A DNA stretch of 64,000 nucleotides from Candidatus Heimdallarchaeota archaeon (GCA_019056785.1 DXJV01000084.1:96001-160000); one strand, 5' to 3'; positions 32,119 through 35,882 are shown, numbered from the stretch's first letter. Program-made: numbers and translations. Notes: generated from the letters alone by a model not told the origin.

Positions 32119-34059
32119 GTGTTTATGAGAAAAAAAAACATGATTTTGCTACTGGTGTTGTTATTCGTCTTGATTGCGCTGCCATTTATTTCTTCAAGCA
32201 AGACATCGACTGGCAAATTACAAGCAATCGCTACAATACAGCAGAGAAAGGAATTAACAAAGAATGACTTAATCTTTGACCTAACACAAGAATTGAATGC
32301 TACAGTAATATTGAAAATTCAATTCATCGGTTTTGAAAGCTCAATGATTAATCTATCAGCACTTGAGGGGGATTTATACAACACTCTTAGTCACCCAAAA
32401 AATCCACCATTAGAAGATGTTAGTTTTGCTTTTGAGTTTAGCTTTGCAACTAAAAATAAGACTGAAACGTTAAAAGACTACATTAGCTCTATTGCTGTTA
32501 ATGGAACAAATACCGGCTATGACCTTGACATTGACCTCCTTCTCGATGATCTTAATAGTGGAAACAGATCAAACATTTTCATACCGAGAGATGGCATGTC
32601 TATTAATGCAGAACTTGTAGAAGATTATCTCTATCAGCACTTTTATCAAGAACCTGTCAATGAAACAAGCTATACATTCTTTATTGCAAATTTTTCAGAA
32701 TTTGATAGCGCTGATCATTCTCTTGAACATTGGTATGATACAAGTGGAATTGATTTGGATTCTGAACAACCCATTACTTGGTGGTACTCAGGATATGGGA
32801 ATTTAAGCAAACGTGCAGCTATGGGCTGGGGGGGGAACTATCGATTTTGCTATTTAGATGTCTCAGCAAGGTCATGGTATTTGGACTATGTGAAAACTGC
32901 TTGGACGGCCCTTGGGGGAGATGGGAGTGAACTATATTATAAATATCCGGATTTGGATAACCTAACACAAACCTTTGACCCTCACATGACTGAAGGACAA
33001 GCAAAAATTCAGCAATACCTTAGCGACTGGATAAATAGCTATATTGGGAATATCTTTTCAAAACCCGTCAGTTCCAAAGTATGCATTTATCAAACGGTTT
33101 CATTACAAGTGAAGGTTTTTGAAAACTTAACAGACAATGGTTTTGCACTAGAAGACATTACTTGGTGTATTAATCAATCGAAAATTTTCAATCAATTACA
33201 AAGTGATTTGCCTTGGATTAATTTTGATGTAAAAGTTGAATGGACAAAATTAAGCGATTATCCAGATTTATTTGATTATCTCCAAAGCCGCATCGAAGAA
33301 GATATAGATGGTAAATATATTGAAGTTTGGCCCGAAGTGTTCAATTATCTCTCCAATCATCGGTCAGACTATTTTAACTTAGAAACAGCAGAATTTGTTT
33401 TGCCATGTTACTTTTTCATAACAAACGAAGTCGGTTTTCGTTACAGAGGCATCTCTTTCGCTGGCCTTGGAGGAATGGGTTGGGAGATTTTGCTTGCAAC
33501 TCAAAATTCTCTTTTTGAAAATGGGCAACTAGACCAACCAAGAAGAGGGATGTCTCAAGTGATGATCCATGAACTAGGACACTCTTTAGGATTACCACAT
33601 CCACACAGTGGTACTTTTGGTTGGGGGTCGAGCTTTGTTGCAGACGTTATGAGCTATTTTGCAATGGAGCCAGGTTATAGTACCTTCTATCAAGATGCCA
33701 TCGGTTGTGCACAAACAGAGGCAAACTTCCATTATGCACTGACTGAATATGAAACTGCATTGCAACTATATGCAGATGCTGGTGAACCACAAGCATTAAA
33801 CGACTTAATAACACAAATTTATGACAGCTTAACACTTATTCCAACTTATTACAAGCAAATGGATTATAACCAATCAGCAACAAAAGCTTTCGTTGTAAGA
33901 GAACAATTACAACAATTGTTCGATACCCTTCAAAATACTGGTACTAGCAGCTCAAAAACCTTAACATCAACAAGCTATTTTGGCATATCGCTAGCAATTG
34001 TTTTGCCGGTATTTATACTAACTAAAAAAGTTCTTAGAAGAAGAAAAGATGTTAATTAA
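32119..34059 (+). CDS. secreted, membrane-anchored zinc metalloprotease (metzincin)
   Basis: Signal peptide; HELGHSLGLPHPH; Met-turn VMSY; C-terminal TM with basic tail. Confidence 0.8.
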   Translation: MFMRKKNMILLLVLLFVLIALPFISSSKTSTGKLQAIATIQQRKELTKNDLIFDLTQELNATVILKIQFIGFESSMINLSALEGDLYNTLSHPKNPPLEDVSFAFEFSFATKNKTETLKDYISSIAVNGTNTGYDLDIDLLLDDLNSGNRSNIFIPRDGMSINAELVEDYLYQHFYQEPVNETSYTFFIANFSEFDSADHSLEHWYDTSGIDLDSEQPITWWYSGYGNLSKRAAMGWGGNYRFCYLDVSARSWYLDYVKTAWTALGGDGSELYYKYPDLDNLTQTFDPHMTEGQAKIQQYLSDWINSYIGNIFSKPVSSKVCIYQTVSLQVKVFENLTDNGFALEDITWCINQSKIFNQLQSDLPWINFDVKVEWTKLSDYPDLFDYLQSRIEEDIDGKYIEVWPEVFNYLSNHRSDYFNLETAEFVLPCYFFITNEVGFRYRGISFAGLGGMGWEILLATQNSLFENGQLDQPRRGMSQVMIHELGHSLGLPHPHSGTFGWGSSFVADVMSYFAMEPGYSTFYQDAIGCAQTEANFHYALTEYETALQLYADAGEPQALNDLITQIYDSLTLIPTYYKQMDYNQSATKAFVVREQLQQLFDTLQNTGTSSSKTLTSTSYFGISLAIVLPVFILTKKVLRRRKDVN

Positions 34060-34125
34060 AAACATCTTTCTTTTTTAAGACAAAATTTATTATCATGAAC
34101 GTTGTTAGAAAGGGTACTAAAAAAA

Positions 34126-34346
34126 GGAGGTGCTGGTTGACTTTGATAGAATGTATGACTCGAGTAACACAACAAACAATTCCAACTAGCATCTCTAAAA
34201 AAGCCTTTTTTAAACAATAATTAAATATTCCACTTTAAAGGGGCTTTGGCTTTTTTTTGGGTTTGCTAGTCTAAATGCTTATGAAGAAATTTGTCAGTGA
34301 GCCACAGTACTTTAGGTCAACCAGTAACCTCGAGATTACTACGAGG
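34126..34346 (+). promoter_or_regulatory. attenuator/riboregulator-like structured leader
   Basis: Mutually exclusive pairings of 34127-34141 with 34183-34195 or 34316-34331; hairpin 34200-34247 followed by T8; cctcg/cgagg hairpin over the downstream RBS. Confidence 0.45.
34137..34220 (+). CDS. putative 27-aa leader peptide (MTLIECMTRVTQQTIPTSISKKAFFKQ)
   Basis: GGAGGTG at 34126-34132, TTG at 34137, TAA at 34218-34220 inside a hairpin loop. Confidence 0.35.
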   Translation: MTLIECMTRVTQQTIPTSISKKAFFKQ

Positions 34347-34354
34347 TAAAAAGA

Positions 34355-35308
34355 TTGACAGAATCAAATCTAGAAGAAGCTATAGAATTGATAAAAGAAC
34401 GGAAAAAAGAAGCCAAACAACTGAAGGGCGAAGAGGAGTTCGGCTTTGTAGATAGCCAACAAGATGAAAAAATAACAACTCCACAAAAAATCAAAGGGCT
34501 TGCTCGGACAGTACGCACCCTTCAAAGAAAGCCGAAAGAAACCATTTCAAAATTCGACAAAAAAACCTTTGACCCAGGATTTATGCAAAGGCATACAAGA
34601 GAGATCACCTATCACCTTGTTCGCAAAGAACTTCAAAAAGTTGGACTAATTACAGACCTCCTTGCAGAAATAAATGCCGGAAAAGAAGCGACAATATACC
34701 TCGCACATCTAAACGGTGCACCACTAATTGTTAAGTGCTTCCGGCATCATCTGACATGTCACAAAAGCGCACGTGGAAATCCACAACTACGAGCAACTGC
34801 TTTTGCAGCCAAAGAATACTACAAACTTTTAAGAGCCTATCGTGCAGGAGTTAGTGTGCCAACGCCAGCAAAACAGATCAATAATATCATCCTCATGAGG
34901 TTCATAGGGAGGGATTGGAAACCTGCGCCTCAACTACGACATGCCATCTTGGGTGACCCTCTAGCAGTTTTAGAAGAACTCCTAGAACAAATAGTTATCC
35001 TATATACGAAAGCAAAACTTATACATGGAGATCTATCGGAATACAATATCCTCATAGACCAGCATCAGCACCCATACATAATTGACTTCCCACAAGCTAT
35101 TGATTTAAACGGCTATCAAATGCAATTTACACAAAAGAAAGAACGAAATCAGAAGGTATTACAAAAAGACTTGAAAACAATTTACCATTTCTTTGAGACA
35201 AAATATCGACTAACATTTGATGTCAATGAAGTTTTTCATCACATCATTGGCGAAAAAGACTATCAAGAACGGCTGGAATTAGAAGAGATAAAAGCCAAAA
35301 GAATCTGA
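34355..35308 (+). CDS. RIO-family Ser/Thr kinase/ATPase
   Basis: INAGKEATIY, IVK, IHGDLSEYNIL, IIDFPQAI. Confidence 0.88.
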   Translation: MTESNLEEAIELIKERKKEAKQLKGEEEFGFVDSQQDEKITTPQKIKGLARTVRTLQRKPKETISKFDKKTFDPGFMQRHTREITYHLVRKELQKVGLITDLLAEINAGKEATIYLAHLNGAPLIVKCFRHHLTCHKSARGNPQLRATAFAAKEYYKLLRAYRAGVSVPTPAKQINNIILMRFIGRDWKPAPQLRHAILGDPLAVLEELLEQIVILYTKAKLIHGDLSEYNILIDQHQHPYIIDFPQAIDLNGYQMQFTQKKERNQKVLQKDLKTIYHFFETKYRLTFDVNEVFHHIIGEKDYQERLELEEIKAKRI

Positions 35309-35504: not shown

Positions 35505-35882
35505 ATGAATTTGGTCATTCCGATGTTATTTTCTTTATTGAAATCGACTATAGACCCGCAAATACACAAAATTTCCTTTTCGTTCTGTCCCTTTATTTTT
35601 GGGGGCTTGGCAATCTATGGGCTTGTTAAACTTCTTAAACTCGAGAAAAACCAGAAGAGAGAACGATGGTGGTCAATATCGACGATAATATTTATGGTTC
35701 TTGTAATAACCTTTGTTGGGTTAAATTCCTTTCTATGGTTGAATGATTTACTTTTCTATCTTTTTATTGCTGTGCGCTTTTTGCTTTTAGTATTTTTACT
35801 TTTGCTTGCAAATCCACACTTTGCACATGCACCATTTCGGAGATTATTCACAACTAAGAAAAAGACTGATAAAGATAACTAA
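35505..35882 (+). CDS. hypothetical membrane protein
   Basis: Three hydrophobic segments; basic C-terminal tail. Confidence 0.55.
   Translation: MNLVIPMLFSLLKSTIDPQIHKISFSFCPFIFGGLAIYGLVKLLKLEKNQKRERWWSISTIIFMVLVITFVGLNSFLWLNDLLFYLFIAVRFLLLVFLLLLANPHFAHAPFRRLFTTKKKTDKDN

What the first reader, a model, noticed from the sequence alone, without database searches (positions are those of the whole stretch)
34126..34355. Leader-peptide attenuator-like switch upstream of a RIO kinase
Seen: (i) a strong GGAGGTG site and a TTG-started 27-codon uORF (34137-34220, ending KKAFFKQ); (ii) a hairpin aaagccttttttaaa/tttaaaggggcttt (34200-34247) whose 5' arm lies in the last uORF codons, followed by T8 (34251-34258); (iii) segment gaggtgctggttgac (34127-34141) can pair with caactagcatctc (34183-34195) or with gtcaaccagtaacctc (34316-34331); (iv) the latter overlaps cctcg (34328-34332), which can sequester the RIO ribosome-binding site cgagg (34342-34346). 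Known: RIO kinases act in small-subunit maturation, and ribosome-sensing attenuators control ribosome-stress genes in bacteria. Inference: a translation-coupled riboregulator of a ribosome quality-control kinase, a type I know few archaeal examples of.
Basis: partly seen in the sequence, partly recalled or inferred. Interest (0 to 1): 0.7.

Follow-up and report, generated by a model that had tools for sequence, protein, structure and literature searches.

The report
Self-masked mini-gene leader before RIO kinase
In front of an extra RIO-type kinase gene of this Heimdall-group Asgard archaeon lie a promoter and a roughly 25-codon mini-gene whose ribosome-binding site pairs with its own coding region; the device precedes the same kinase subfamily across Asgard lineages and is probably an undescribed archaeal switch linking kinase synthesis to translation.

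Summary
The core is real and conserved: a TATA-like box, a strong Shine-Dalgarno (SD) GGAGGTG, and a 25/27-codon ORF in which the SD pairs with an in-ORF anti-SD (34126-34139 with 34183-34196; -22 kcal/mol, z -4.2).

The same layout sits upstream of a divergent third RIO paralogue, which is neither Rio1 nor Rio2. I found 37 distinct versions in three Heimdall-class families and one other Asgard class. ORF length is kept at 17-28 codons, the helix covaries, and the peptide is weakly constrained. A covariance model run over 83 whole genomes gave 32 hits. Of the 30 that could be tested, 29 lie just upstream of such a RIO gene.

In this genome one segment (34316-34332) can mask either the RIO start region or the mini-ORF start region. 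That gives an erm-like switch geometry, but it is only weakly echoed in relatives. The "terminator" hairpin is no better than chance, and hairpin plus T-run is not conserved.

No RNA data were available, so co-transcription is inferred, not shown. An internal promoter-like site exists here.

Verdict: a translated regulatory leader (about 0.6). The held literature does not describe it. This scan has noted the same kind of leader before RIO kinases on other DNA (Thor- and Hod-type archaea, bacteria).

The parts
34040..34076 (+). Hairpin overlapping the stop codon of the upstream 646-aa metzincin-like gene, followed by T6 (34071-34076). This is the likely end of the upstream transcription unit.
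   Evidence: -9.6 kcal/mol, z -2.77. Sequence. Relatives also have a T-rich stretch directly after the upstream gene.
34086..34093 (+). TATA-like box TTTATTAT, 40 nt upstream of the SD. The predicted transcription start is about 34115-34122 (inferred).
   Evidence: in 26 of 28 distinct elements the best TATA-like octamer starts 35-42 nt upstream of the SD. One search shows the same. The start position is inferred from the usual archaeal TATA-to-start distance (my own knowledge).
34126..34132 (+). SD1, GGAGGTG. It gives 7 Watson-Crick pairs with the 16S rRNA 3' end.
   Evidence: the 16S 3' end of this genome is GGATCACCTCCT; only 10 of the genome's 158 GGAGGTG heptamers precede ORFs longer than 100 aa.
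34143..34220 (+). Mini-ORF (leader ORF) of 25 codons from TTG 34143, or 27 codons from the in-frame TTG 34137. Stop TAA at 34218-34220.
   Evidence: Relatives carry 17-28 codon ORFs (median 24) at the same distance from the SD. Shuffles keep such an ORF in only about 6.6% of cases per lineage, across 13 diverged representatives.
34126..34139 (+). Segment 1: 5' arm of the self-masking helix (SD1 plus 7 nt).
34183..34196 (+). Segment 2: the in-ORF anti-SD CAACTAGCATCTCT (codons 14-18), forming the 3' arm of the self-masking helix.
   Evidence: Covariation.
34200..34258 (+). A/U-rich hairpin (34200-34247) followed by T8 (34251-34258). T8 is a plausible archaeal termination signal. The hairpin itself is not supported.
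   Evidence: z +0.15. By my estimate from base composition, a T8 is expected about 0.03 times in this spacer; neither hairpins nor T-runs are conserved after the mini-ORF in relatives.
34278..34285 (+). Promoter-like site CTTATGAA, a possible internal RIO promoter. Weak and untested.
   Evidence: position-weight-matrix score 7.7. Controls: divergent-promoter regions have median 4.6 and upper quartile 6.6; coding DNA has median 1.1. Relatives L002-L009 score -1.0 to 4.9 here.
34316..34332 (+). Segment 3: masking segment GTCAACCAGTAACCTCG. It is complementary both to the mini-ORF start region (segment 1) and to the RIO start region (segment 4).
   Evidence: 1:3 duplex -26.8, 3:4 -13.6, 1:2 -23.3 kcal/mol.
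34342..34359 (+). Segment 4: the RIO translation start region, with SD2 GAGGT (34343-34347) and start TTG (34355-34357). Both are paired with segment 3 in the local fold.
   Evidence: z -2.96. Orthologues L003-L005 also start TTG-ACN and have CU-rich stretches paired with SD2.
34355..35308 (+). RIO-domain kinase/ATPase of 317 aa, the third paralogue of this genome.
   Evidence: Pfam RIO1, 2.7e-33; far below the Rio1 equivalog cut-off; tree separates it from Rio1 (C44) and Rio2 (C49). GKEA, the Lys of VKxFR, HGDxSEYN and IDFPQA are invariant.

Best explanation
The 295-nt gap holds the 5' leader of the gene for a divergent RIO kinase.

Inferred layout of the transcript: a promoter (TATA-like box at 34086) starts an RNA a few bases before a very strong SD. 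This SD drives translation of a 25-codon mini-ORF, but in the free RNA it is locked in a helix with an anti-SD inside the same ORF. The mini-ORF can therefore be translated only when a small ribosomal subunit captures the SD. The likeliest moment is during transcription, before the anti-SD is made, or in competition with the helix.

Ribosome traffic on the mini-ORF then decides what the downstream RNA does.
- Resting fold in this genome: segments 1:2 and 3:4 are paired, which hides both start regions.
- A ribosome that dwells on segment 2 frees segment 1. Segment 1 can then pair with segment 3 (-27 kcal/mol), which exposes the RIO SD and its TTG start.
- This is erm-type translational attenuation logic.
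- The T8 may additionally stop part of the transcripts.

Shown by comparison: the mini-ORF, its self-masking helix, its promoter spacing and its exclusive linkage to this RIO subfamily.

Inferred: co-transcription with RIO, translation of the mini-ORF, and the direction of the switch.
For: 1. Conservation. The same architecture lies upstream of all 14 orthologues and paralogues in the family and of most relatives in two further families.
2. Specificity.
- The covariance-model search of 83 whole genomes gave 32 hits. Of these, 29 lie 44-431 nt upstream of a third-type RIO gene on the same strand, 2 are cut by contig ends, and 1 weak hit is elsewhere.
- There is one hit in the whole of G000.
- There are no credible hits at about 55 Rio1 loci of other archaea.
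- Two hits in another Asgard class also precede a RIO homologue.
3. Helix covariation.
- 78.7% of cells are paired, against 42-56% for slid controls.
- 5 of 9 pairs change on both sides.
- Lineage-specific extensions of the helix covary.
4. ORF maintained against chance. Peptide constraint is weak, pN/pS 0.63. By my reading of the sequences, the anti-SD sits in different reading frames in different lineages. This pattern fits a leader ORF better than a functional peptide.
5. Promoter evidence.
- The promoter-like box lies at a fixed 35-42 nt from SD1.
- In L002-L009 the 125 nt before the RIO gene score like coding DNA for such boxes.
- The upstream neighbour genes differ between lineages.
6. 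This genome. The 1:2, 1:3 and 3:4 pairings all stand out against shuffles and against real sequence. The RIO gene uses a TTG start with a masked SD, as in L003-L005.
Against: - There is no transcript or ribosome data at all, so neither co-transcription nor translation is shown.
- In this genome a T8 follows the mini-ORF, and a promoter-like site at 34278 (score 7.7) could give the RIO gene its own transcript.
- The strong 1:3 alternative pairing is significant only here. In L002-L005 the best partner lies at the same place (20-23 nt before the RIO start) but is not better than shuffles. In other clades nothing comparable was found.
- Masking of the RIO SD is not seen in L006, L010 or the family f3 members L012 and L018.
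- No stalling motif or codon bias is evident in the peptides.
- pN/pS below 1 in most groups leaves room for a functional peptide.
Confidence: 0.6

Rival explanations
1. The mini-ORF is a separate small gene or a dual-function small RNA. It would have its own promoter and T8 terminator, giving an RNA of about 135 nt. The RIO gene would have its own promoter near 34278. The small RNA, or its peptide, would act in trans. For example, its SD region could pair with segment 3 of the RIO 5' UTR and open the RIO start region, as DsrA/RprA do for rpoS. Alternatively it could have an unrelated role.
For: - T8 lies 30 nt after the stop, and a promoter-like site sits at 34278-34285.
- The 1:3 pairing of -26.8 kcal/mol would work in trans as well as in cis.
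- pN/pS is 0.14-0.56 in most groups.
- Spacers are long, up to about 430 nt.
Against: - Relatives L002-L009 have no promoter-like site before the RIO gene.
- T-runs after the mini-ORF are neither conserved nor more frequent than composition predicts.
- Strict same-strand adjacency in 29 of 30 testable hits across families is what a cis element shows.
- The peptide sequence is not conserved between families.
- The peptide has no Pfam or NCBIfam match.
Confidence: 0.2
2. A ribosome-coupled transcription attenuator. A ribosome reaching the end of the mini-ORF melts the hairpin at 34200-34247 and prevents termination at T8. Without translation, RNA polymerase stops there.
For: - The 5' arm of the hairpin lies in the last codons, and T8 follows.
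- Several relatives have a small hairpin that starts at or just after the stop codon, followed by T-rich sequence (L003, L006-L009, L002).
Against: - The hairpin is no more stable than shuffles (z +0.15).
- Post-stop hairpins in relatives have z between -2.2 and +0.8, and 6 of 17 lack any T5 run within 80 nt.
- Archaeal intrinsic termination depends on the oligo-T tract and does not need a hairpin (my own knowledge), so melting a hairpin would not obviously prevent it.
Confidence: 0.12
3. The helix is an RNA thermometer or a 5'-terminal stabilising hairpin. The ORF would be incidental or would only help to open the helix. RIO output would follow temperature or mRNA half-life, not translation status.
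For: - The SD is masked by a helix rich in G-U pairs at the very 5' end of the predicted transcript.
- DNA sequencing runs that hold this stretch are labelled sediment and hydrothermal-vent metagenomes.
Against: - The ORF, its start codon, its length and the position of its stop are maintained far beyond chance, which a pure RNA element does not need.
- The helix here (-22 kcal/mol, 14 pairs) is much more stable than known thermometers (my own knowledge).
Confidence: 0.05

Closest known systems
erm/cat-type leader-peptide translational attenuators of bacteria (ermCL-ermC, cat86, cmlA)
   Same: - A short SD-led leader ORF lies upstream of the regulated gene.
- The regulated gene's SD and start codon are buried in a hairpin.
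- An alternative pairing can free them when a ribosome occupies part of the leader. Here the resting pairs are 1:2 and 3:4, and the alternative is 1:3.
   Different: - The organism is an archaeon.
- The leader's own SD is self-masked by an anti-SD inside its ORF, and that SD region is the competing strand.
- No known inducer or arrest motif is present.
- The downstream half of the switch is not conserved among relatives.
- The regulated gene is a RIO kinase, not a resistance gene.
trp/his/ilv-type leader-peptide transcription attenuators
   Same: A translated leader ORF followed, in this genome, by a hairpin and a U-run upstream of the regulated gene.
   Different: - There are no runs of regulatory codons.
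- The terminator hairpin is chance-level and not conserved.
- No antiterminator alternative was found.
- Archaeal termination does not require a hairpin.
SD-sequestering fold-back structures of small-ORF mRNAs (hok-type and other type I toxin mRNAs) and RNA thermometers
   Same: The SD of a small ORF is kept closed by an intramolecular anti-SD, so translation needs an opening event.
   Different: - The element is single-copy, syntenic and not mobile.
- The peptides are not consistently hydrophobic.
- No antisense partner was looked for.
- The anti-SD lies inside the ORF, downstream of the start.
Leaders before RIO kinases noted earlier in this scan (Thorarchaeota, Hodarchaeales-type, Chloroflexota and other bacteria). 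These are unpublished AI notes.
   Same: A small translated ORF with RBS-masking helices lies directly upstream of extra RIO-family kinases. The Hod-type and g7-type notes describe the same self-masked SD that I found in L084 and in L020/L122-L132.
   Different: - The genome and genus differ.
- The segment that can mask either start region (34316-34332) is specific to this genome.
- I did not check the bacterial cases.

Membership tests
erm/cat-type translational attenuator | Short leader ORF with its own ribosome-binding site upstream of the regulated gene | tested here: met
   SD, start codon and a 17-28 codon ORF are conserved in 37 versions and maintained against shuffles. Translation itself was not measured.
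erm/cat-type translational attenuator | Leader and regulated gene lie on one transcript | not testable with these tools
Indirect evidence only: relatives have no promoter-like site before the RIO gene, but this genome has one.
erm/cat-type translational attenuator | The RBS of the regulated gene is sequestered in a hairpin | tested here: inconclusive
   Met in this genome (z -2.96). Weaker in L002-L005. Absent in L006, L010, L012 and L018.
erm/cat-type translational attenuator | A mutually exclusive alternative pairing frees the RBS when a ribosome sits in the leader | tested here: inconclusive
   Strong here (1:3, -26.9 kcal/mol, z -5.4). Not significant in relatives.
erm/cat-type translational attenuator | Inducer-dependent ribosome arrest on a specific nascent peptide | not testable with these tools
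   No conserved peptide motif between families. Needs toeprinting or ribosome profiling.
trp/his-type transcription attenuator | Regulatory codon runs in the leader peptide | tested here: not met
   No peptide listed shows an amino-acid run.
trp/his-type transcription attenuator | Terminator hairpin plus U-run, with a competing antiterminator | tested here: not met
   T8 is present, but the hairpin has z +0.15. The pair is not conserved. No antiterminator was found.
Type I toxin-antitoxin small ORF | Hydrophobic membrane peptide, multicopy or mobile locus, antisense RNA partner | tested here: not met
   The peptides are variable and often polar. The genome has one copy. The locus is syntenic with the RIO gene across families. 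An antisense RNA was not tested.
Any Rfam family | Match at or above the gathering score | tested here: not met
   best score 20 bits against a threshold of 134. All E-values exceed 2.
RIO kinase/ATPase family (downstream gene) | RIO domain with the GxGKE(A/S) loop, the ATP-binding Lys, the HGDLSEYN catalytic loop and the metal-binding IDxxQ | tested here: met
   Pfam RIO1 at 2.7e-33. G109, K110, E111, A112, K127, H224, G225, D226, S228, E229, N231, D244 and Q247 are invariant in 16 relatives. The closest solved structures are Rio1.
Rio1 or Rio2 orthologue (downstream gene) | Clusters with Rio1 (next to the aIF1A gene) or carries the Rio2 N-terminal winged helix | tested here: not met
   In the tree it falls in a separate clade. 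The Rio1 copy lies on C44 after an aIF1A-like gene, and the Rio2 copy on C49. The NCBIfam Rio1 score is 78 against a cut-off of 480.

The most novel reading that the evidence does not exclude
The self-masked SD is a gauge of functional small ribosomal subunits.
- Only subunits with a mature 16S 3' end can outcompete the in-ORF mimic of that 3' end and translate the mini-ORF.
- That event would set the synthesis of an Asgard-specific RIO ATPase acting on small-subunit maturation or surveillance.
- If so, this is a direct feedback loop between ribosome quality and a maturation factor. It would also be the first leader-peptide-type riboregulator shown in archaea, with bacterial RIO kinases apparently controlled by analogous leaders.
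Probability: 0.15. Interest if true: 0.85.

Novelty: new variant of a known kind. Interest (0 to 1): 0.66.

Why it matters
Very few cis-acting RNA regulators are known in archaea, and to my knowledge none of the translated-leader type has been described in Asgard archaea.

This one is defined sharply enough to test. It has a fixed promoter distance, a strong SD, a mini-ORF of about 24 codons and a covarying SD/anti-SD helix. It is tied to a single gene family: an extra RIO kinase of unknown role. If it reads translation status, three things follow.
- It gives a functional handle on that kinase, pointing to ribosome state.
- It shows that leader-ORF control exists in the archaeal lineage closest to eukaryotes, where uORFs are a major regulatory layer.
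- It provides a portable part for archaeal reporter work.

It also matters for annotation: these gaps of 200-500 nt are not empty, and the RIO genes start at TTG or GTG.

Tried and rejected
- Rfam scan of 33500-35000 at E up to 10: only noise.
- tRNA/tmRNA scan of the window: none.
- Bacterial sigma-70 promoter and terminator scan: no terminator-like site, promoters at the shuffle level. The scan is not suited to archaea.
- Whole-leader fold 34110-34370: z only -1.77. The signal lies in individual helices.
- Pfam and NCBIfam on the mini-peptide: nothing.
- Search for other copies in the genome by pattern and by covariance model: single copy.
- The search for related loci with the RIO alignment: swamped by ordinary Rio1 genes of other archaea. 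I used these as a negative control.
- Public runs: no RNA holder listed.
- Laying DNA contigs of four runs: the leader is identical except G>A at 34301, so there is no strain-level covariation to read.
- Terminator hairpin: z +0.15.
- Post-stop hairpins and T-runs in 17 relatives: not significant and not conserved. T5+ runs occur about as often as base composition predicts.
- C/D-box or H/ACA small RNA reading: no box motifs conserved, by inspection.
- Leaderless start at the ATG that overlaps the SD in some relatives: the distance from the TATA-like box does not fit.
- Intervening genes in the long spacers of family f3: none.
- Literature searches for RIO kinase with Asgard, leader peptide, attenuation or uORF found no description.

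Full report
**What is in the window.**
The finding lies in a 295-nt gap.
- Upstream gene: a 646-aa surface protein with a metzincin-type HELGHSLGLPH motif (32119-34059, +).
- Downstream gene: a RIO-domain protein (34355-35308, +; Pfam RIO1 2.7e-33).

- GGAGGTG at 34126-34132.
- In-frame TTG codons at 34137 and 34143, with the stop at 34218-34220.
- An A/U-rich hairpin at 34200-34247, then T8 at 34251-34258.
- The segment GTCAACCAGTAACCTCG at 34316-34332.
- CGAGGT at 34342-34347.
- The RIO start TTG at 34355.

The genome is a 2.87-Mb metagenome-assembled genome of a Heimdall-group Asgard archaeon. Its 16S rRNA ends GGATCACCTCCT, so GGAGGTG is a 7-pair SD. Only 10 of the genome's 158 GGAGGTG heptamers precede long ORFs.

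**Which structures beat chance.**

| Structure | Energy (kcal/mol) | Test |
|---|---|---|
| SD helix 34126-34139 / 34183-34196 | -22.2 | z -4.15, 0 of 200 shuffles |
| RIO start-region hairpin (SD2 and TTG paired with 34316-34332) | -12.8 | z -2.96 |
| Long-range pairing of the SD region with 34313-34332 | -26.9 | z -5.4; next best of about 1800 real windows is -23.9 |
| Hairpin before T8 (34200-34247) | -10.2 | z +0.15 |
| Hairpin plus T6 of the upstream gene (34040-34076) | -9.6 | z -2.77 |

- The SD helix ranks third among 2835 comparable SD/small-ORF helices in the whole genome.
- The upstream gene has its own hairpin and T6, followed by a TATA-like box at 34086-34093. So T8 is not simply that gene's terminator.

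**Comparison with relatives.**
The RIO protein has orthologues and a second paralogue clade in all ten genomes of the genus and in the sister genus (49-63% identity).
- It is distinct from this genome's Rio1, which lies next to an aIF1A-like gene on C44.
- It is distinct from this genome's Rio2, which has an N-terminal winged helix and lies on C49.
- It keeps all the RIO catalytic motifs.

Upstream of every one of these genes lies the same arrangement.
- A TATA-like octamer 35-42 nt before a GGAGG-type SD (26 of 28 distinct elements).
- A start codon 12-19 nt from the first G of the SD.
- An ORF of 17-28 codons (median 24).
- A helix between the SD region and an anti-SD at about codons 11-26.
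- A stop codon within 15 nt of the 3' arm of the helix.

The arrangement also occurs before related third-type RIO genes in two further families of the class. It occurs at loci labelled Hodarchaeota and at GC-richer unnamed archaea. It occurs in one family of another class of the phylum.

**Specificity.**
- A covariance model built from 21 elements was run over 83 whole genomes of the class. It gave 32 hits at E <= 0.01, one or two per genome.
- Of those, 29 lie 44-431 nt upstream of a third-type RIO gene on the same strand. Two are cut off by contig ends. One, the weakest, lies elsewhere.
- About 55 Rio1 loci of other archaea served as controls. They gave no credible hit.
- In G000, small ORFs with an SD helix as good as those of the weaker relatives occur about once per 6 kb per strand. 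About 0.1 would therefore be expected by chance in each 600-nt upstream window.

**RNA or peptide?**
- The helix covaries. 78.7% of cells are paired, against 42-56% for slid registers. Five of nine pairs change on both sides, and no shuffle reaches the observed covariation score.
- The lineage-specific extensions are complementary in each lineage: GCTGGTTG/CAACTAGC, GTCATAG/CTATGAC, GAATGTA/TACATTT, GCGGGT with its complement, and CTATCAGGAGG/CCTCTTGGTAG.
- The anti-SD sits in different reading frames in different lineages, by my reading of the sequences. So it is conserved as RNA, not as amino acids.
- The reading frame is nevertheless maintained. Shuffles keep a suitably placed ORF of 17-28 codons in only about 6.6% of cases, for each of 13 diverged representatives.
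- The peptide is weakly constrained (pN/pS 0.63 overall, 0.14-1.2 by group) and cannot be aligned between families.

Taken together, this is the signature of a translated leader ORF whose act of translation matters more than its product.

**Is it one transcript with the RIO gene?**
This could not be tested. The indirect evidence is mixed.

For one transcript:
- The upstream neighbour genes vary while the mini-ORF always travels with the RIO gene.
- A matrix of the mini-ORF promoters scores the last 125 nt before the RIO gene like coding DNA in L002-L009 and most others (median about 1, against 4.6 for divergent-promoter controls).
- The long spacers hold no other gene.

Against one transcript, in this genome only:
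- The T8.
- A promoter-like CTTATGAA at 34278 (score 7.7).

Hairpins and T-runs after the mini-ORF are not conserved.

**Mechanism proposed.**
- The conserved core is a self-masked SD. Translation of the mini-ORF needs a 30S subunit to take the SD before or against the internal anti-SD.
- In this genome the downstream half is explicit. Segment 3 (34316-34332) is complementary both to the RIO start region (GAGGT-N7-TTGAC) and to the mini-ORF start region (GAGGT-N5-TTGAC).
- The naked RNA should fold as 1:2 plus 3:4, about -37 kcal/mol in total, with both start regions closed.
- A ribosome held over segment 2 would leave segment 1 free to take segment 3 (-27 kcal/mol) and open the RIO start. This is erm-like logic with permuted segments.
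- In L002-L005 the best partner of the SD region lies at the same place, 20-23 nt before the RIO start. There it coincides with a CU-rich stretch that pairs with the RIO SD, but it is not significant on its own.
- I therefore regard the translational switch as likely here and as lineage-variable elsewhere. The direction of regulation is inferred.

**Relation to what is known.**
- No Rfam family matches.
- Four full-text searches found no paper linking RIO kinases, or Asgard archaea, with leader ORFs.
- The published view lists RioB as a third RIO type in bacteria and some archaea, with unknown role (PMC5815136).
- Earlier notes of this scan describe the same kind of leader before extra RIO kinases in Thorarchaeota, in a Hod-type archaeon and in several bacteria. 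Two of them describe exactly the self-masked SD that I found independently in L084 and in the g7 genus. I did not check the bacterial notes.

**Verdict.**
It is a translated regulatory leader of a RIO paralogue, but the conserved device is SD self-masking and not a terminator hairpin. The link to ribosome quality control is an extrapolation.
- It is a new variant of a known kind.

Noticed in passing
window 32119-34059 (+): A 646-aa protein with a metzincin-type zinc motif HELGHSLGLPH and hydrophobic segments at the N-terminus and near the C-terminus, the latter followed by a short basic tail. It has only sub-threshold Pfam hits (M10, M66, reprolysin) and no NCBIfam hit. Relatives have a gene with a similar hydrophobic C-terminal segment and basic tail in the same position.
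   Followed up: partly
L012 and L018 (family f3), spacer between the mini-ORF and the RIO gene: The motif AGTGGRCRCTCTMAA occurs twice in each spacer and is conserved between the two genomes. It may be a protein-binding site or an RNA motif.
   Followed up: no
L004 and L005, last ~90 nt before the RIO start: A second conserved 24-codon ORF (AAGGAG, 9 nt, GTG). Its TAA stop overlaps the RIO start (TTGACTAA), which suggests termination-reinitiation coupling in that lineage. It is absent from this window.
   Followed up: partly
window 34355; L003-L009, L021-L024: The third-type RIO genes of this family start at TTG or GTG, not ATG. TTG-ACN is conserved in four orthologues, so automatic annotation may misplace these starts.
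   Followed up: partly
window 34278-34285: The promoter-like site CTTATGAA lies downstream of T8 and scores in the top quartile of divergent-promoter controls with a matrix trained on the mini-ORF promoters. It could give the RIO gene its own transcript in this genome.
   Followed up: partly
whole genome G000: Only 10 of 158 GGAGGTG heptamers precede ORFs longer than 100 aa, and 27 precede ORFs of 15-35 codons. Full-length SDs are rare before ordinary genes here. The other small-ORF cases were not examined.
   Followed up: no
window 35505-35882 (+): A 125-aa, mostly hydrophobic protein downstream of the RIO gene has a weak sub-threshold SNARE-domain hit (PF05739, E 0.0033, 17.8 bits against a cut-off of 26.8). 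It is probably spurious.
   Followed up: no
G000 contigs C18 and C1 (L106, L107): The 16S rRNA gene is split between two contig ends (model positions 4-828 and 829-1467). This is an assembly break.
   Followed up: no
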